From NCBI GenBank assembly GCA_037442605.1, contig JBBIPY010000002.1:1-38809 (forward strand): a DNA stretch of 38,809 bases, written 5' to 3'. Every line of letters starts with the position of its first letter. Positions within the stretch are counted from its first letter, which is position 1. Positions 63 through 25,172 of the stretch are shown one piece after another. This DNA comes from Candidatus Omnitrophota bacterium (GTDB lineage: Bacteria > Omnitrophota > Gorgyraeia > DTHP01). Position numbers and translations under genes: made by a program. The notes under the pieces are model-generated. The model worked only from the letters and a program-made list of their open reading frames with translations. It was not told the origin of the DNA and made no database searches.

Positions 63-283
63 CTGAAAAAGTATTTTTTGTCTGTGTTAACCCCGTTAGA
101 AATTGAAGCTCCACGGGCTTACACCCGTGGAATCTTTCTTTTCGCTTCGGCTCGGCACAGCGAAAACCTCGCCGAAGCGGAATTCCTCTCGCTATCCATC
201 CCCACCCTTACAGGTGGGGAATTCCGCGAAGGCGGGTTAAATTTCTAACAGGGCTAATCTGTGCGAACATAGGGTTTTTTCAG
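63..283. repeat. Composite palindromic intergenic word element carrying the 138-bp insert
   Basis: Outer arms ctgaaaaagtat / agggttttttcag. Inner 14-nt arms ccccgttagaaatt (91..104) and aatttctaacaggg (240..253). Same architecture as the uninterrupted element at 5746..5912. Confidence 0.7.
101..238. repeat. 138-bp structured repeat element, copy 1
   Basis: Base-for-base identical to 11518..11655. Hairpins: ccacggg-cttaca-cccgtgg (111..130), cgcttcggc/gccgaagcg (143..179), and gcggaatt/aattccgc enclosing ccccacc-cttaca-ggtgggg (177..227). Confidence 0.9.
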
Positions 284-5745: not shown

Positions 5746-5912
5746 CGTTGAAAAAGTATCTTTACGCAGATTAGCCCCGTTAGAAATTTAATTTCTAACG
5801 GGGTTAGCACAGATTAGAAGAGGCAAGATTAACGCAGATATCGACGATAATCTGCGATCATCTGTTGTTTTTAATCTGTGATTCATCTGTGCATCATAAG
5901 GGTTTTTCAACG
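5746..5912. repeat. Long imperfect palindromic word element with a perfect 29-nt palindrome at its core
   Basis: cgttgaaaaag ... tttttcaacg outer arms. Perfect palindrome ccccgttagaaatt-t-aatttctaacgggg at 5775..5803. Internal cagatta/taatctg and atctgtg words. Confidence 0.85.
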
Positions 5913-11078: not shown

Positions 11079-11517
11079 CTATACCGCTGTGTTATTTGCA
11101 AAGCACTCCGGAGAAATGTAGTCACCAAAGCGCTTCTGCGTTTTGAGCAGGCGTTCCTTTTGCTGGCTGAGCACCGCAAAGAGGGCGCCGGGCGCATCCG
11201 CCACGTTATCGCGGTAGAATTTCTCCACGCGGTCAATCTTGGCTAAATTTTCTGGAATGCTGGTGCTAAACTGTTTAACATAATCTTCTTTCGCATATTC
11301 TTTCTGCAAGCATTTCTGAAAAAGCGGACGCAGGTCCTCATATCGAGGAATCCAGCCGGTAGGAGACTCTATCGGTTCCACATCATTATGCACGCGTAAT
11401 AGGCGACGTCTTCGGGATAATCGCTGCAGATAAAGATTGTCTCTGGCTGACAGAGCTCATCCGCTGCCGCGATGAATTGATGCACTTCGGGATTGATTAT
11501 GCGGGCTAACTTCTGAT
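11079..11517 (-). pseudogene. pckG: Relic of GTP-dependent PEP carboxykinase: N-terminal ~45 aa joined out of frame to C-terminal ~100 aa
   Basis: NYQKLARIINPEVHQFIAAADELCQPETIFICSDYPEDVAYY resembles the PEPCK-GTP N-terminus. PTGWIPRYEDLRPLF...KEDYVKQF...FGDYISPE resembles the extreme C-terminus. The ~450-aa catalytic core is absent. The 5' end is cut by the 138-bp repeat. Confidence 0.7.
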
Positions 11518-11655
11518 AATTGAAGCTCCACGGGCTTACACCCGTGGAATCTTTCTTTTCGCTTCGGCTCGGCACAGCGAAAACCTCGCCGAAGCGGAAT
11601 TCCTCTCGCTATCCATCCCCACCCTTACAGGTGGGGAATTCCGCGAAGGCGGGTT
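11518..11655. repeat. 138-bp structured repeat element, copy 2
   Basis: Identical to 101..238. Boundaries confirmed against the reading frames of track ORFs 11369..11575 and 11536..11718, which read through it. Confidence 0.9.
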
Positions 11656-16069: not shown

Positions 16070-16600
16070 CTATTTTACTGGTTCTGGTAAACCCAAGAAA
16101 CTTAAGGGTAATTCATGGAAGAAACAATAACAACCAACCGATTCTACATATTTTAAGACATCTCGGTAGACATCTTTTTTAAACCAATCGCTTAGAATGT
16201 ATGCGTATTTAACAGAAACTCCTAACGGAGCTAGCAATTTCTTATATTGTTTATTCTTAAAATCGCAGGTTTGAAGCTTCTCATCAACCGAACCTGCTAC
16301 CTCTTGAAATTTAATTTCGATAATATAAAGTGTCTTGCCCGCCAAAATTAGAATTGCTTCGTCGGGTAACAATTTTTTAGAGATAAACGAAGAATAATCA
16401 ATGTTATTGGGCTCAAGTAAGTTTTTATATAATTTATTCTTTCCATAAAATTCGGCAACTTTTTCGCCCTTGAAATAAACAGTATCGTCTTTAACTTCAT
16501 AGCCAGCAAGCGAGTCTAAAAGATTTTTCATGGCTATTCTAGATTCAAATCTTAAACCAGAGAAAGTTGTCTTGGAACCCCCCTTGCCACCTCGAATCAT
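16070..16600 (-). CDS. Putative type II restriction endonuclease (PD-(D/E)xK)
   Basis: LLPDEAILILAGKTLYIIEIKFQ gives a PD...E-x-K arrangement. Start overlaps the methyltransferase stop by 4 nt (ATGA at 16597..16600). AT-rich relative to the flanks by eye. Confidence 0.6.
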   Translation of the reverse strand: MIRGGKGGSKTTFSGLRFESRIAMKNLLDSLAGYEVKDDTVYFKGEKVAEFYGKNKLYKNLLEPNNIDYSSFISKKLLPDEAILILAGKTLYIIEIKFQEVAGSVDEKLQTCDFKNKQYKKLLAPLGVSVKYAYILSDWFKKDVYRDVLKYVESVGCYCFFHELPLSFLGLPEPVK

Positions 16601-17442
16601 TGCCTCTTCTCCCGAAAGGCATCTTTTAGTCGCTTAACAGAAATATTAATATGGCGTTCCTCAAACTCAATCCCTATATATTGCCTGCCTTCTTTGAACG
16701 CTGCAATCCCAGTCGTCCCACTGCCATTAAAAGGATCTAAAACTATATCCCCGGTTCTCGTAGAGGCTAAAACAATCCTATCCAACAGCTCTATTGGTTT
16801 TTGAGTTGGATGTTTGCCATATATCTTCTCGGCTGGTCCTGGAGCTTTAATAGGCCAAAGACTTAACATCTGCTTATCATTATTTATTTTCTTCATTAAT
16901 TCATAGTTAAAATAATGCCTGCTGTTTTTATTTTTTGCGGCCCAGATAATTGTCTCGGTCGAATGAGTAAAATAGCGACAACTTAAGTTTGGTGGAGGAT
17001 TAACTTTAAACCAGGCTATATCGTTTAAAATCTTATATCCTAAAACTTGCATAGCAGAGCCAACAGTATAAATTATATGTGAAGTTCCCGAGACCCAAAT
17101 TGTACCATTTTGCGTCAAAACTCTCTGGCATTCCCTTAGCCACCTTTGAGTAAAAATATAATTTTCTTCTACCCCTTTAGATACATCCCACTTTCCCTTG
17201 TTAACCGAAACCATCCTGCCGGCGTGGCAAGTTATTCCGCCGTTTGAAAGAAAATAAGGAGGATCGGCAAAAATCATATCTATGGAGTTCTCGGTAATTT
17301 TAGGCAGGATGTCAAAGCAGTTCTCTTTATATAGAATTATCCTGCGATTCTTATCTTCAAAATAAGGCTTAGATGAGACGTTTTGAATGGATGCGAATAC
17401 ATCTTTCTTATGAATTATTTTTTCGTGAGTAACTGTAGTCAT
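16597..17442 (-). CDS. Beta-class N6-adenine (DPPY) DNA methyltransferase
   Basis: Motif IV IFADPPYFLSNGG lies N-terminal to motif I LDPFNGSGTTG. NLSCRYFTHSTETIIWA and GKHPTQKP blocks resemble the DpnA/HinfI-type family. Confidence 0.9.
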   Translation of the reverse strand: MTTVTHEKIIHKKDVFASIQNVSSKPYFEDKNRRIILYKENCFDILPKITENSIDMIFADPPYFLSNGGITCHAGRMVSVNKGKWDVSKGVEENYIFTQRWLRECQRVLTQNGTIWVSGTSHIIYTVGSAMQVLGYKILNDIAWFKVNPPPNLSCRYFTHSTETIIWAAKNKNSRHYFNYELMKKINNDKQMLSLWPIKAPGPAEKIYGKHPTQKPIELLDRIVLASTRTGDIVLDPFNGSGTTGIAAFKEGRQYIGIEFEERHINISVKRLKDAFREKRQ

Positions 17443-20562: not shown

Positions 20563-20584
20563 TTCCTCCCTTCGGTCGGAAAAG

Positions 20585-20612
20585 TTTACAGTTAACAGTT
20601 TACAGTGTACAG
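20585..20612. repeat. Four tandem heptamers (tttacag ttaacag tttacag tgtacag)
   Basis: Read directly. Inverted counterpart at 21089..21116. Confidence 0.85.
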
Positions 20613-20677
20613 TATTAGTTAAGCGAATCTATTAAACCACACAACATGCTGGTTATTTCTTTAGCATCTCGACGCAT

Positions 20678-21082
20678 TTATGGATAAAGCCTTGCCTCAA
20701 GAAATTTCTCCATTAACAAGACGTTAAAAACAGAAACACACTCCCGAGCTGAATCTAACGAAATCGAATAGAAACGCACCTTTTCCCTCTTAGATTTCTT
20801 CCCACTACCTTCAGCTATGTTATTTGCGACAGAGATGCTAGTGCCGTTCCAACTTTTTACTGCTAAATCCTTTTTTATCTTGTTGAAGGACAGACGATTA
20901 TACATTCATGTCATCTTATAGGCATATTAAGTTGTAACGGCACTAGCCCTTGCTAAGTTGTCTCCTATTGTGTGCTGGAATTCTCGGGGTAGCTTCTTAT
21001 ATATTTCCAGCACTTTATGAATAAATTCTAAAGCTTTCTGATAAACCTTTAGCCGTTCAAAATCAAATTCATCGCTTGCCAT
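20678..21082 (-). pseudogene. Four-helix-bundle (23S rRNA intervening-sequence type) protein gene, split by a MITE
   Basis: N-part MASDEFDFERLKVYQKALEFIHKVLEIYKKLPREFQHTIGDNLARAS (21082 down to 20927). C-part ISVANNIAEGSGKKSKREKVRFYSISLDSARE (to 20678). Removing 20842..20942 and one CTAG copy restores ..NLARASISVANNIAEGSG.. in frame. Confidence 0.8.
20842..20942. mobile_element. 101-bp MITE with 12-bp terminal inverted repeats and a CTAG target-site duplication
   Basis: TIRs tgccgttccaac / gttgtaacggca (11 of 12 complementary). CTAG at 20838..20841 and 20943..20946. No coding capacity. Confidence 0.75.
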
Positions 21083-21088
21083 CTTTCA

Positions 21089-21116
21089 CTGTAAACTGTA
21101 CACTGTTCACTGTAAA
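21089..21116. repeat. Four tandem heptamers (ctgtaaa ctgtaca ctgttca ctgtaaa), inverted relative to 20585..20612
   Basis: Read directly. Confidence 0.85.
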
Positions 21117-21133
21117 CTATTGTTGAGTGAGAC

Positions 21134-21969: not shown

Positions 21970-22221
21970 TCAGATTTCCCCGCGGCGGAATTTATCCCAG
22001 AGCCTGCGTTTTTCAAACGGAACTGCTTTTTGGGTAAATTGATTTATCTCTTCAAGCCAGGCAAGTCTTTCTTCCGGAGTGGCTTTAAGGCACTGGGTCA
22101 AATAATCTCTGGTCATATTATGCCTGAAATCCCTCGCTGCTATTTTATTTCTTGGACTTTGATTTCGCATGTTTTTCTTTCTTAACATCTTCAATAACTT
22201 CAAGGGCATTAATATCGGCAA
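21970..22221 (-). CDS. Small protein downstream of and overlapping the nucleotidyltransferase gene
   Basis: ORF with a TPEERLAWLEE helix. The true start is probably internal (22170 or 22116). No family recognised. Confidence 0.45.
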   Translation of the reverse strand: MPILMPLKLLKMLRKKNMRNQSPRNKIAARDFRHNMTRDYLTQCLKATPEERLAWLEEINQFTQKAVPFEKRRLWDKFRRGEI

Positions 22222-22669
22222 AATCCACGGGCCGGGCCGCTTTCAATTTCAGTTTCTTTAAATCCGCTATAGCCGCAATCGGAACATTAATCCTTTTCGC
22301 CTTGACAATTTCCTTGGCAATCTTGTTGTAATCCACTTCTTCATCTACAAAAACGTCAATCAATTTTAGATGGTCTTTGAGATGAAAAAAAGAGAACACC
22401 TTCATGTTTTTTTCTTTCACCCAAGTTCGCCGCTTCGTGGGGTTTTTAAAATCTTCTGCGCTTACCGGAACCTTGGACCGATAACCGAGTTCAGAAAGCG
22501 CCTCAAAAAACCTATCAATGTTCTCCGGCGACATATCAATGATAAGGTCCAAATCGATAGTCATGCGCATTACGCCGTGTAAAACTGCTGCCACGCCGCC
22601 GGCGACGCAATAGCGCACTTTCTTCTGTTTCAGTTTCTTGAAGACGTCTTCGTAAAATAATTTCGCCAT
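22145..22669 (-). CDS. Minimal nucleotidyltransferase-fold protein
   Basis: AGGVAAVLHGVMRMTIDLDL fits the G[GS]-x(9-13)-DxD pol-beta NTase signature. Lys-rich tail. Confidence 0.65.
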   Translation of the reverse strand: MAKLFYEDVFKKLKQKKVRYCVAGGVAAVLHGVMRMTIDLDLIIDMSPENIDRFFEALSELGYRSKVPVSAEDFKNPTKRRTWVKEKNMKVFSFFHLKDHLKLIDVFVDEEVDYNKIAKEIVKAKRINVPIAAIADLKKLKLKAARPVDFADINALEVIEDVKKEKHAKSKSKK

Positions 22670-22672
22670 AAA

Positions 22673-23551
22673 TTATCTGCTCTGCGAAACAGCCTTTTCT
22701 AACGCCTTTTTCATTACACCGACAGGCGCCTTTTTGCCGGTCCATATTTCCCAGGAAATCACGCCCTGGTATAAAAGCATACCCAGGCCATTCATCGCCT
22801 TAAGCCTCTTTTGCTTCGCTATTTTGATTAGTTTGGTTTGGGGAGGGTTGTAGATTAAATCGCAGACGGCAAACTTGGAATGGAATGCCTTGGGGTCGAT
22901 TACCGAAGGGTCGCCTTTTTTCATTCCTACGGGTGTGGCATTAACTAAACAATCAAAATCCCTGAGGCCTCCTTTGGGAATACTTGAGGCAAGTTCTATC
23001 CTGCAGTTGGGGAAATTAAGCCTTAAGTCAATTACTAAATTTTCCGCCTTAGAACGCACCACGTCGTAAAAGGTAACTGTTTCGGCTCCTTCCTTGATGA
23101 GATTAAATCCCACGGCACGAGCCGCTCCACCCGCACCGAGGATAAAAAATCTTTTACCCCTGGGCTTAATTTTGAGCATCTCTTTCAACGCCCGGATAAA
23201 ACCCCTGCCGTCGGTATTGTAGCCGATAAGTCTGCCATCTTTAAGATGAATGGTATTTACCGCCCCGATAATTCTGGATGTAGGATAGACCTCGTCAAGA
23301 AAAGGGATGCAGGTTTCCTTATGCGGGACGGTAACATTAAGTCCGGAGATACCCAGGGACTTCATGCCCAGAATGGCATCCCTTAAATTCTCGGGCGGGA
23401 CCTCAAAGGCTACGTAGAGCGCATTTAATCTGCACGCCTTGAATGCGGCGTTGTGCATCAAAGGAGAAAAACTGTGTCGGACGGGATAACCGATTATACC
23501 GTAAATTTGAGTATGGGAATCAATCTTTATAGCCATAAACTTCTGCTTCAA
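22673..23551 (-). CDS. aroE: Shikimate dehydrogenase
   Basis: YGIIGYPVRHSFSP, NVTVPHK and GAGGAARA motifs. The track start is TTG. Likely ATG at 23536 (MAIKID). Confidence 0.95.
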   Translation of the reverse strand: MKQKFMAIKIDSHTQIYGIIGYPVRHSFSPLMHNAAFKACRLNALYVAFEVPPENLRDAILGMKSLGISGLNVTVPHKETCIPFLDEVYPTSRIIGAVNTIHLKDGRLIGYNTDGRGFIRALKEMLKIKPRGKRFFILGAGGAARAVGFNLIKEGAETVTFYDVVRSKAENLVIDLRLNFPNCRIELASSIPKGGLRDFDCLVNATPVGMKKGDPSVIDPKAFHSKFAVCDLIYNPPQTKLIKIAKQKRLKAMNGLGMLLYQGVISWEIWTGKKAPVGVMKKALEKAVSQSR

Positions 23552-23574
23552 GCAGCATGCTGCAAGCTTCAGGC

Positions 23575-23664
23575 TTGTAGCCTGTTGCCTGTAGCCTGTA
23601 GCCTGTAGCCTGTTGCTGTAGCCTGTTGCCTGTAGCCTGTAGCCTGTTGCCTGTTGCCTGTCGC
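23575..23664. repeat. About 13 tandem heptamers, CTGT(A/T)GC
   Basis: ctgttgc/ctgtagc units run up to and overlap the leuA stop codon. Preceded by the palindrome gcagcatgctgc. Confidence 0.9.
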
Positions 23665-25172
23665 TATCTCTTATACACGATTTTATTTATCGCATTCACA
23701 TACGCCTTGGCAGAGGATTCAATTATATCGGTCGAGGCGCCCTTGCCGGTAAATATTTTGTCTTTATATTTTAGTTTGATGGTAACTTCTCCGATAGCGT
23801 CTTTGCCTCTGGTTACCGATTTTATCGCGTAATCTTCCAGCACCCCTTTTATACCCGTTATCTGCTCTATTGCCTTATAGCAGGCATCAACCGGACCGTC
23901 TCCGCGCGCTGCAGCCTCGAGCATTTTAGACCTGCATCTGAGTCTTATGGTTGCAGTGGGAACTGTGTCTGTCCCGCTGATTATATGAATATATTCCAGA
24001 TGCCAGGTCTCGGGAATCTGCATTATCTCATCCTCGATAATCGCGGCAATATCCTCATCAAAGACCTCTTTTTTCTTGTCGGCTAATTCCTTGAATCTGC
24101 CGAAGGCCGTATCTAATTCAGTCCTGTTTAACTTAAAACCGATTCTCTTAAGTCTTTCGCTAAAGGCATGGCGTCCTGAATGCTTTCCCAATACCAGCCC
24201 GCTAACGCGCAAGCCGATATCCTGTGCCCGCATAATTTCATAGGTGCTCGGTTCTTTGAGTATCCCGTCCTGATGAATGCCCGCTTCATGACGAAAGGCA
24301 TTTGCGCCTACAATTGCCTTATTGGGCTGCACCACAAAACCGGTAAGCCGCGAAACCAAACGGCTGGTCTGGGAGATCTCTGTCGTGCGGATATTAGTCG
24401 CGAAGGGCAGGAAATCTCGGCGCGTCTTAATCGCCATCACGATCTCTTCCATCGCCGCATTTCCTGCGCGCTCGCCCAGACCGTTAATCGTGCATTCTAC
24501 CTGCCTGGCGCCATTTTTTATTGCCGCGAGGGAATTAGCCACTGCCAGCCCCAAATCATTATGACAATGCACGCTGATTACCGCTTTATTTATGTTCGAT
24601 ACATTCTCTTTTATTAAACGAATCAAATCGCCAAACTGCTGGGGTATGGCATAACCCACGGTGTCGGGGATATTCACGGTTTTTGCTCCTGCATCAATTA
24701 CTTCAGCAATCACTTTAAATAAAAATCTCTTCTCGGTGCGTGAGGCATCCTCGGGAGAAAACTCAATATCGTCGGCAAACCGCCGGGCGTATTTAACTGA
24801 GTCTACGGCAATCTTTAAAATTTCTTCTTCCGGCTTTCTCAATTTATACTGCATATGTATCTTGGATGTCGCCAGAAATACGTGTATTCGCGGGCGTCGG
24901 GCATGCCTTATCGCCCGCGCTGCCGCGTCAATATCTCTTTTCAGTGAACGCGCCAGGCCGCAGATAATCGGCTTTCTTATCGCTTTTGCAATCAAAGAAA
25001 CCGCCTCAAAATCACCCGGCGAGGCAATGGGGAACCCTGCCTCAATAATATCCACATTGAGCCGCTCGAGTTGCCGGGCAATCTCCAGCTTCTGCTTGGT
25101 CTCCAGGCTTGCCCCCGGCGCCTGTTCACCGTCGCGCAAAGTGGTATCAAAGATTAAAATCTTCTCGGACAT
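23664..25172 (-). CDS. leuA: 2-isopropylmalate synthase with C-terminal regulatory domain
   Basis: [11 protein letters not shown] and [13 protein letters not shown] motifs; 502 aa including the LeuA_dimer region. Confidence 0.95.

What the first reader, a model, noticed from the sequence alone, without database searches (positions are those of the whole stretch)
20837..20947. A 101-bp MITE with a CTAG target duplication has been inserted into the four-helix-bundle gene
Excising 20842..20942 and one CTAG copy rejoins ...GDNLARAS | ISVANNIAEGSGK... in frame, reconstituting the conserved R-A-x-x-S-I-x-x-N-I-A-E-G core of this family. The insert has 12-bp TIRs (one mismatch) and no ORF. A 4-bp CTAG/YTAR duplication is characteristic of IS5-group transposition. 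This is a clean, datable insertion event and implies that a cognate transposase exists or existed in this genome.
Basis: partly seen in the sequence, partly recalled or inferred. Interest (0 to 1): 0.65.

Follow-up and report, generated by a model that had tools for sequence, protein, structure and literature searches.

The report
Small transposon inserted in helix-bundle gene
A 101-base non-coding jumping element has recently landed in a small gene of an uncultured Omnitrophota bacterium; a sister strain still has the unbroken gene, so this is a well-proven but ordinary transposon insertion by a previously undescribed, widespread element family.

Summary
Window 20842-20942 is a 101-bp insert with 14-bp terminal inverted repeats (one mismatch), flanked by CTAG on both sides. 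It sits in codons 46/47 of a TIGR02436/PF05635 four-helix-bundle gene (20615-21082, minus strand). A 97.9%-identical sister-strain contig has the exact empty site (one CTAG) and an intact 120-aa gene. The element is present in about 5-7 near-identical copies in the source metagenome, all next to CTAG.

It belongs to a large family of 90-117-bp elements ending in TGCCGTTCCAACTT, found in MAGs of at least seven phyla. Non-palindromic direct pairs (TTAG/TTAG, CTAA/CTAA, CTCG/CTCG and others) show a true 4-bp duplication with a YTAR-like preference. That fits IS5-type targeting and rules out IS630-type (TA) and IS481-type (6-bp) duplication.

No transposase partner was found, so the IS5 attribution remains an inference; the TG...CA termini are not IS5-like.

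- There is an in-frame TAA at codon 100. It is recent here but recurs at the same codon in other homologues.
- The host gene is itself a roughly 455-bp cassette with heptamer-repeat arms, found at operon junctions and absent from this junction in related species.

Verdict: a real MITE insertion, a new member of a known kind, of moderate to low interest.

The parts
20842..20942 (.). The 101-bp MITE. It has no ORF of its own, is AT-rich (35% GC), and folds into a hairpin closed by its TIRs.
   Evidence: DNA fold -15.9 kcal/mol, z = -4.95. An nhmmer profile built from 138 family members plus this copy itself hits only this site in the window, so there is no second copy (E 5e-8). It is absent from sister strain L119.
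20842..20855 (+). Left terminal inverted repeat, TGCCGTTCCAACTT. It is identical to the family consensus.
20929..20942 (-). Right terminal inverted repeat, TGCCGTTACAACTT. It has one mismatch (A for C at position 8).
   Evidence: The same right end occurs in the other copies of the source metagenome (pieces with 0 differences).
20838..20841 (.). Left copy of the 4-bp target-site duplication, CTAG.
   Evidence: The sister strain has a single CTAG at this position.
20943..20946 (.). Right copy of the 4-bp target-site duplication, CTAG.
   Evidence: Other copies in runs X1 and X2 also match through this CTAG before diverging.
20615..21082 (-). Disrupted four-helix-bundle gene (TIGR02436/PF05635). 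It has 120 codons when the 105 bp are removed; the insertion lies between codons 46 and 47.
   Evidence: The intact orthologue P0001 is 120 aa and 98% identical.
20678..20680 (-). In-frame TAA at codon 100. The sister strain has GAA. An ATG follows directly, and the conserved C-terminal helix continues in frame.
   Evidence: (20680 A>C in X2, X3, X4). An in-frame TAG occurs at the same codon in homologues P0079 and P0044.
20563..21121 (-). The cassette that carries the host gene. It comprises an upstream heptamer arm, the four-helix-bundle gene, a downstream heptamer arm, and a conserved ribosome-binding region that ends at the aroC start codon.
   Evidence: A six-locus alignment defines the boundaries. 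The same flanks occur at five unrelated operon junctions. The cassette is absent from the pilD-aroC junction of related species L271 and L272.
21088..21121 (-). Upstream heptamer-repeat arm (NWACAGT units). It contains a sigma-70-like TTTACA-17-TACAGT motif.
   Evidence: (I3: 34 nt, 88% complementary), (0 matches expected by chance).
20580..20613 (-). Downstream heptamer-repeat arm, the inverted partner of 21088-21121.

Best explanation
The insert is a miniature inverted-repeat transposable element (MITE), a 101-bp non-autonomous DNA transposon.

Proposed mechanism:
- A transposase supplied in trans recognised its 14-bp termini, probably extended by a weaker subterminal box (family end consensus TGCCGTTCCAACTTnTTnnGCCnAA).
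- It made a 4-bp staggered cut at one of the very few CTAG sites of this genome and joined the element in.
- Gap repair then duplicated CTAG.

The event hit codons 46/47 of a four-helix-bundle gene and introduced two in-frame stops, so only a 51-residue N-terminal fragment can be made from the normal start codon. The insertion is recent and polymorphic: a strain of the same species from a sister sample has the unoccupied site and an intact gene, and the other copies in the source community are nearly identical. The target preference (CTAG much more often than TTAG/CTAA, plus some CNNG sites) is that of IS5-type transposases, so an IS5-like enzyme is the most likely driver.

Shown: the element, its TIRs, the 4-bp duplication, the empty site, the copy number, and the family and its target preference.
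Inferred: mobilisation in trans, the transposase family, and loss of gene function.
For: - Sequence anatomy.
- Exact empty site in L119: 97.9% identity, GATG-CTAG-CCCT.
- Copy number: interior depth is 44-64 against 8.8-9.5 for the flanks. At least 5 other right junctions in X1 and 3 junctions in X2 all run through CTAG, and their flanking contigs have depth similar to this genome, 10-12.
Lengths are 90-117 bp, most often 100 bp.
- Flanks: CTAG/CTAG in 70 of 117; 14 identical non-CTAG direct pairs.
- Outer base duplicated: among copies whose first right-flank base is T, 5 of 12 independent copies also have T as the outer left base, against 7 of 227 in the unbiased sample (Fisher p = 8e-5). No 5- or 6-bp duplication was seen.
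- CTAG occurs 12 times in 38.8 kb against 144 expected.
- The repaired gene is a full-length TIGR02436 member, and its orthologue is intact.
- Published precedent: IS5 duplicates 4 bp at YTAR (PMC5009759). MITEPsy1 is 100 nt, has a CTAG/YTAA 4-nt duplication, is attributed to the IS5-family element ISPsy2, and has been shown to transpose (PMC3189936).
Against: - No autonomous element with these ends was found. There are none in the window, in 858 kb around 117 copies, in 21 metagenome loci, in plasmids or in viral contigs.
- The termini are 5'-TG...CA-3'. To my knowledge that is typical of IS3, IS481 and IS21, not of IS5. They bear no resemblance to the IS5-type end GGAAGGTCTGAAAAAGCC of MITEPsy1 (PMC3189936).
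- About 17% of intact duplications are CNNG without a central TA. That is looser than the published YTAR.
- Copy number rests on assembler word depth in a mixed community, not on a closed genome.
Confidence: 0.9

Rival explanations
1. It is the same MITE, but mobilised by an integrase-type DDE transposase (IS3, IS481 or IS21 superfamily) or an IS701-like enzyme rather than an IS5-type one.
For: - The termini are exactly TG...CA. To my knowledge this is the hallmark of IS3, IS481 and IS21 ends.
- IS481-family elements target NCTAGN (PMC3053399, PMC2516522).
- The IS701 family makes duplications of exactly 4 bp (PMC2266710).
- No IS5-like end similarity is seen (PMC3189936).
Against: - IS481-type duplications are 6 bp (NCTAGN). 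Here there are 0 of 117 five- or six-bp duplications.
- The published IS701 end consensus ---YACT-Y--YR does not fit TGCCGTTCCAACTT.
- The YTAR-like preference, including TTAG/TTAG and CTAA/CTAA pairs, is the published IS5 signature (PMC5009759).
Confidence: 0.3
2. It is an IS630/Tc1-mariner-type element of 103 bp (GTGCC...GGCAC) that inserts at CTAG and duplicates only the central TA.
For: - CTAG is palindromic, so the window copy alone cannot distinguish a 2-bp from a 4-bp duplication.
- To my knowledge IS630 and IS870 target CTAG.
- In the unbiased sample the outermost flank bases vary more (16 deviations) than the bases next to the element (7).
Against: - 14 intact duplications have no central TA (CTCG, CCAG, CTGG, CTTG, CAAG, CGAG).
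- The outer base is co-duplicated: five TTAG/TT.. pairs and two CTAA/CTAA pairs, Fisher p = 8e-5.
Confidence: 0.03
3. It is not a transposon insertion. Instead it is an assembly artefact, or a functional intervening sequence or regulatory hairpin that belongs to the gene.
For: - The 105 bp keep the reading frame.
- The element folds into a stable hairpin.
- The host gene family was first named after intervening sequences of 23S rRNA (Pfam name).
Against: - The filled allele is seen in independent contigs of run X1 and the empty allele in run X2.
- There are two in-frame stops inside the insert.
- None of 120 listed homologues carries it; their lengths are about 117-127 aa.
- The same element occurs at unrelated loci in many phyla, with target duplications.
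- There is no Rfam match.
Confidence: 0.02

Closest known systems
MITEPsy1 of Pseudomonas syringae pv. phaseolicola (PMC3189936)
   Same: It is about 100 nt with terminal inverted repeats and no coding capacity. It makes a 4-nt duplication at CTAG (or YTAA), occurs in a handful of near-identical copies per genome, and inserts into coding genes and inactivates or alters them.
   Different: Its ends are unrelated: GGAAGGTCTGAAAAAGCC, matching ISPsy2 (IS5 family), against TGCCGTTCCAACTT here. MITEPsy1 has an identified candidate parent IS and experimentally observed transposition; this family has neither. MITEPsy1 has a narrow distribution, whereas this family spans many phyla.
IS5 (E. coli) and the IS5 group of the IS5 family
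   Same: It makes a 4-bp target duplication with a YTAR preference (PMC5009759). CTAG, TTAG and CTAA duplications are all seen here.
   Different: This element has no transposase gene. To my knowledge IS5-group ends begin with GG/GA, whereas these begin with TG and end with CA. CTAG is far more strongly preferred here, and CNNG sites without TA are also used.
IS481 family (IS481, ISLxc2)
   Same: It has TG-initiated ends and a CTAG-centred target (PMC3053399, PMC2516522).
   Different: The IS481 family duplicates 6 bp (NCTAGN); here the duplication is 4 bp. Its ends are TGTG..., not TGCC....
Correia, RUP and Nezha-type bacterial MITEs (IS630-related)
   Same: They are hairpin-forming non-autonomous elements of about 100-150 bp that are scattered in genomes and insert in or near genes (my own knowledge).
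   Different: Those elements duplicate TA; this family duplicates 4 bp.

Membership tests
MITE (miniature inverted-repeat transposable element) | Short (under about 600 bp) with no transposase coding capacity | tested here: met
   101 bp. The only ORF that touches it starts at an internal ATG and runs out into the host gene.
MITE (miniature inverted-repeat transposable element) | Terminal inverted repeats | tested here: met
   14 bp with 1 mismatch. The repeats are nearly invariant in 138 other copies, although those copies were retrieved by a search pattern that fixed 13 of the 14 TIR bases.
MITE (miniature inverted-repeat transposable element) | Target-site duplication, shown by comparison with an empty site | tested here: met
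   CTAG x2 in the window against a single CTAG in sister strain L119.
MITE (miniature inverted-repeat transposable element) | Multiple copies at unrelated loci | tested here: met
   Depth ratio of about 5-7 and several different junctions in X1 and X2. Only one copy lies in the window itself.
MITE (miniature inverted-repeat transposable element) | A cognate autonomous element with the same ends | tested here: not met
   None was found in the window, 138 loci, plasmids or viral contigs. The search was limited: MAG assemblies usually drop IS copies, and whole genomes could not be scanned for single ends.
IS5-group-derived element | 4-bp target duplication | tested here: met
   (p = 8e-5 for co-duplication of the outer base; no 5- or 6-bp duplications).
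IS5-group-derived element | YTAR target preference | tested here: inconclusive
   Of 84 intact pairs, CTAG accounts for 70. TTAG and CTAA pairs are present, but 12 pairs are CNNG without TA. The reference motif is in PMC5009759.
IS5-group-derived element | Ends resembling those of an IS5-group IS | tested here: not met
   TGCCGTTCCAACTT against GGAAGGTCTGAAAAAGCC (MITEPsy1/ISPsy2). To my knowledge the IS5 ends are GGAAGGTGCG....
IS5-group-derived element | DDE_Tnp_1-type transposase in the parent element | not testable with these tools
   The parent element was not found.
IS630 / Tc1-mariner-derived element | TA dinucleotide duplication | tested here: not met
IS481-family-derived element | 6-bp NCTAGN duplication | tested here: not met
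   0 of 117 six-bp duplications; PMC2516522 and PMC3053399 give the family feature.
TIGR02436 / PF05635 four-helix-bundle protein (host gene) | Full-length HMM match above the curated cutoff | tested here: met
DGR accessory protein Avd (NF033474) | Score above the equivalog cutoff, with a neighbouring reverse transcriptase | tested here: not met
   33.8 bits against a cutoff of 80. No RT domain appears among the window proteins scanned.

The most novel reading that the evidence does not exclude
Two nested selfish elements may both be undescribed.

(1) The MITE would belong to a pan-bacterial superfamily. Its 14-bp ends are conserved almost without change in Acidobacteriota, Methylomirabilota, Gemmatimonadota, Nitrospirota, Proteobacteria, Actinomycetota and Omnitrophota. 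Its transposase would be an unrecognised IS group that combines TG...CA ends with IS5-like CTAG/YTAR targeting.

(2) The gene it hit would be the cargo of a roughly 455-bp 'operon-invading' cassette. This cassette has arms made of heptamer repeats and carries its own ribosome-binding site for the downstream host gene. It also exists in gene-less hairpin form. It would be the mRNA-operon counterpart of the ORF-bearing intervening sequences of 23S rRNA, with the arms pairing in the transcript.
Probability: 0.25. Interest if true: 0.6.

Novelty: new member of a known kind. Interest (0 to 1): 0.35.

Why it matters
For the finding itself, this is a textbook-quality natural example of a MITE insertion. 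Filled and empty alleles occur in the same species, the copies are near-identical, and the target duplication is defined. That makes it useful as a strain marker and as evidence of recent transposase activity in an uncultured Omnitrophota population.

More broadly, the family (about 100 bp, TGCCGTTCCAACTT ends, CTAG duplication) is abundant in soil and groundwater lineages and, as far as the accessible literature shows, is unnamed. Knowing it helps annotation, because many 'broken' genes and intergenic hairpins in these MAGs will be this element. It also sets up a concrete search for its transposase. CTAG is roughly 12-fold under-represented in this window, so the element competes for a scarce target.

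The side observation may matter more. The four-helix-bundle genes of this clade travel as heptamer-armed cassettes into housekeeping operons. The function and spread of this very large protein family are unexplained, so this deserves its own study.

Tried and rejected
- Other copies in the window: none. A TIR search with up to 3 mismatches and an nhmmer family profile found nothing further.
- Autonomous partner, all negative:
  - TIR pairs 300-5000 bp apart in 117 genome loci were only neighbouring MITEs.
  - Three solo TIRs (L004:7131, L024:4268, L060:5054) have no transposase nearby.
  - ORF families shared between loci are housekeeping genes: ABC transporter, kinases, sigma-54 activators and so on.
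  - All large window ORFs were scanned with Pfam; none is a transposase.
  - The 21 metagenome loci hold no partner.
  - blastn of six MITEs against 72,556 plasmids gave only chance hits.
  - The viral-contig 18-mer scan found one more MITE, L118.
  - The viral-contig 14-mer scan gave 120 hits that are chance matches, for example in phage structural genes.
- A metagenome scan for the window's own subfamily left end gave 0 hits, so the source data are not in that collection.
- Literature: the TIR string occurs only in unrelated primers. No MITE is described for these phyla. The supplements of the IS4/IS701 paper contain no such end. The Siguier 2014 IS review could not be opened.
- Rfam found no family in the window, and there are no tRNA genes.
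- The IS630-type 2-bp model was considered seriously, because the outer flank bases vary more than the inner ones. It was rejected after the targeted scan.
- DGR/Avd reading of the host gene: rejected.
- Terminator or outward promoter in the MITE: none predicted.

Full report
**1. What is there**

On the minus strand, 20615-21082 encodes a small protein interrupted by extra DNA.
- The extra DNA is 20842-20942 (101 bp, 35% GC).
- Its ends are TGCCGTTCCAACTT and, on the other strand, TGCCGTTACAACTT.
- CTAG lies directly outside both ends (20838-20841 and 20943-20946).
- Deleting the element and one CTAG (105 bp) gives an open frame of 120 codons once a further in-frame TAA (20678-20680, codon 100) is read through.
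- The repaired protein matches TIGR02436 over 108 of 109 profile positions (E 2.7e-24) and PF05635 (E 2.5e-25).
- It does not reach the cutoff for the DGR protein Avd (33.8 bits against 80).
- Because 105 is a multiple of 3, the damage comes from two in-frame stops in the insert, not from a frameshift.

**2. Proof of insertion**

- Public runs from one subsurface-metagenome study hold this sequence.
- Laying their contigs on the region showed, in run X2, a 1664-bp contig that skips exactly 105 bp with a 4-bp ambiguity.
- I recovered that contig through its protein (P0001: 120 aa, 98% identical, intact) as locus L119 and aligned it.
- It is 97.9% identical over about 1.3 kb and reads ...GAGATG-CTAG-CCCTT..., so it is the unoccupied target. 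It has GAA where the window has TAA.
- The filled allele is supported in run X1 by contigs that enter the element from both sides.

**3. Copy number and age**

- Assembler depth inside the element is 44-64, against 8.8-9.5 on the flanks.
- At least five other right junctions in X1 and three junctions in X2 run through the CTAG and then diverge into different sequence. The contigs that carry them have depth 10-12, close to that of this genome.
- The other copies differ from the window copy by one substitution (20891) and one extra A (after 20864).
- There are therefore about 5-7 nearly identical copies, which indicates a recent burst. The window itself has only this copy.

**4. The family**

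A second, restricted scan of metagenomes gave 21 more.
- The elements are 90-117 bp long, most often 100 bp.
- They occur in MAGs labelled Terriglobia and other Acidobacteriota, Methylomirabilota, Gemmatimonadota, Nitrospirota, Beta-, Gamma- and 'Delta'-proteobacteria, an actinomycete and an Omnitrophota MAG.
- Beyond the 14 terminal bases, 13 of which the search pattern itself fixed, only a weak subterminal box is shared (TGCCGTTCCAACTTnTTnnGCCnAA). Interiors are unrelated between lineages: the window copy is at most 62% identical to any other.
- The Methylomirabilota 91-bp subfamily carries a second TIR-like site 25 bp inside one end.
- The TIR string is not in the searchable literature, and no MITE is described for these phyla.

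**5. How long is the duplication?**

CTAG is a palindrome. The window copy alone therefore fits a 4-bp duplication, a TA duplication with a 103-bp element (IS630-like), or no duplication at all.
- In the unbiased sample, 84 of 117 copies have identical 4-mers on both sides: 70 are CTAG and 14 are non-palindromic direct pairs (CCAG, CTCG, CTAA, CTGG, CTTG, CAAG, CGAG). This proves that at least the inner two bases are duplicated and need not be TA.
- To test the outer base, I scanned specifically for copies whose first right-flank base is not C.
- Among 12 independent copies with T there, 5 also have T as the outer left base (TTAG/TTAG type). That compares with 7 of 227 end-pairs in the unbiased sample (Fisher p = 8e-5).
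- With the two CTAA/CTAA pairs, which are the same thing on the other strand, this shows a true 4-bp duplication. The preference is CTAG much more often than TTAG/CTAA, plus some CNNG.
- There are no 5- or 6-bp duplications.
- This matches the published IS5 motif YTAR (PMC5009759) and MITEPsy1 (100 nt, CTAG/YTAA; PMC3189936). It excludes IS630-type and IS481-type (6-bp NCTAGN; PMC3053399, PMC2516522) duplication.
- CTAG is very rare in this window: 12 sites, two of them the duplication itself, against 144 expected.

**6. The transposase**

It was not found.
- It is not in the window. All sizeable ORFs are housekeeping genes, hypothetical proteins or a DNA methylase.
- It is not in about 1 Mb of DNA around 138 copies.
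- It is not in plasmids or viral contigs.
- MAG assemblies tend to lose multi-copy IS elements, and the tools could not scan whole genomes for single ends, so this absence is weak evidence.
- The ends are TG...CA. To my knowledge that is typical of IS3, IS481 and IS21 rather than IS5. IS701 elements also make exact 4-bp duplications (PMC2266710), but their end consensus does not fit.
- I therefore hold the IS5-type driver at roughly 0.45, integrase-type or IS701-type at about 0.3, and something undescribed for the rest.

**7. Consequence for the gene**

- From the normal start only 51 residues can be made.
- An ATG inside the element opens a 75-codon frame into the rest of the gene.
- The TAA at codon 100 is a recent G>T change, because the sister strain and runs X3 and X4 have GAA. 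It would fit decay after inactivation.
- However, two homologues from another operon context (P0079, P0044) have an in-frame TAG at the same codon, followed by a still-conserved C-terminal helix.
- A stop at this position is therefore recurrent and may be tolerated. I leave this unexplained.

**8. Context: organism and cassette**

- The organism is an Omnitrophota bacterium: the best AroC relatives, at 70-83% identity, are all from that phylum.
- The four-helix-bundle gene is flanked by inverted arrays of NWACAGT heptamers, 20580-20613 and 21088-21121 (34 nt, 88% complementary).
- Homologues sit with the same arms, and the same downstream ...CTGTAAACTTTTYCGACYGAAGGGAGRAAA-ATG segment, between unrelated operon genes: xseA|xseB, ruvC|ruvA, a hypothetical gene|pfk, and Aldedh|DeoC.
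- A six-locus alignment shows that similarity starts abruptly at the upstream arm and ends at the start codon of the next gene. In the window this unit is 20563-21121.
- The two closest species available have leuA-aroE-pilD-aroC without this unit. The host gene is therefore itself an acquired cassette.
- In run X2, some contigs join a left arm to a right arm with only 4-8 bases between them, which are gene-less hairpin versions. The arms are multi-copy: depth 233 against 9.5.
- In the predicted RNA fold the arms pair and enclose the whole gene.
- This resembles ORF-bearing intervening sequences of 23S rRNA, after which the Pfam family is named, but that is a resemblance only. I did not test processing or mobility.

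**9. Verdict**

The finding is real and its interpretation is essentially right: a recent, polymorphic MITE insertion with a 4-bp CTAG duplication. It is a new member of a known kind. Interest is moderate to low for the event itself and somewhat higher for the unnamed cross-phylum family and for the cassette it landed in.

Noticed in passing
window 20563-21121; loci L141-L151, L119, L271, L272: The four-helix-bundle gene is the cargo of a roughly 455-bp cassette. The cassette is bounded by inverted NWACAGT heptamer arrays and ends in a conserved ribosome-binding segment that abuts the next gene's ATG. The same unit sits co-oriented at five unrelated operon junctions (pilD|aroC, xseA|xseB, ruvC|ruvA, hyp|pfk, Aldedh|DeoC). 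It is absent from pilD|aroC in the two nearest species. Gene-less arm-to-arm hairpins exist in run X2.
   Followed up: partly
window 20678-20680; L149 1498-1500; L151 1498-1500: An in-frame stop at codon 100 of the four-helix-bundle gene recurs in independent lineages (TAA here, TAG in P0079 and P0044). The conserved C-terminal helix continues in frame after it. In the window and in L149 an ATG follows the stop directly. This could be a tolerated truncation, re-initiation or read-through.
   Followed up: partly
window 23548-23671; L271 1159-1258 and 2905-3000; L272 1201-1314: Operon junctions in these Omnitrophota genomes are filled with heptamer-repeat arrays, often arranged as inverted halves. 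The heptamer sequence differs between species at the same junction: (GGCWACA)n between leuA and aroE here, CGGTTNT/AACCGAA in L271, and GTNTAAT/ATTACAC in L272.
   Followed up: partly
window 101-238 and 11518-11655; palindrome 5779-5806: There is a 138-nt exact repeat with three internal hairpins and no terminal inverted repeats. Copy 1 splits the palindrome CCCCGTTAGAAATT|AATTTCTAACAGGG, and an intact version of that palindrome lies at 5779-5806. Copy 2 lies next to an ORF that is only the C-terminal fragment of a PEPCK gene (11079-11393). It looks like a second kind of non-autonomous element, possibly resembling an IS200/IS605 derivative.
   Followed up: no
window 21970-22669: A DUF6036 nucleotidyltransferase gene (22145-22669) and an overlapping 83-codon ORF (21970-22221) lie between aroE and pilD. 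Both are missing from the syntenic leuA-aroE-pilD-aroC region of L271 and L272. This is a second lineage-specific insertion, possibly a toxin-antitoxin-like pair.
   Followed up: no
whole window: CTAG is about 12-fold under-represented (12 sites against 144 expected from base composition), while TTAA (266) and CTAA (180) are common. An N6/N4 DNA methyltransferase gene lies at 16597-17442.
   Followed up: no
L036, L044, L046, L060, L072, L079, L087, L102, L109: The 91-bp Methylomirabilota subfamily of the MITE carries a second TIR-like sequence 25 bp inside one end, giving two putative transposase-binding sites. L087 holds about five elements within 4.3 kb, so it is an insertion hotspot.
   Followed up: no
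window 29482-35248: This is a cluster of paralogous hypothetical genes: 159-nt repeats at 29482, 31683 and 34081, and identical 49-nt terminator-like hairpins at 31840 and 34226. Three tandem 123-bp repeats lie inside ORF 32718-34214 (32728-33100).
   Followed up: no
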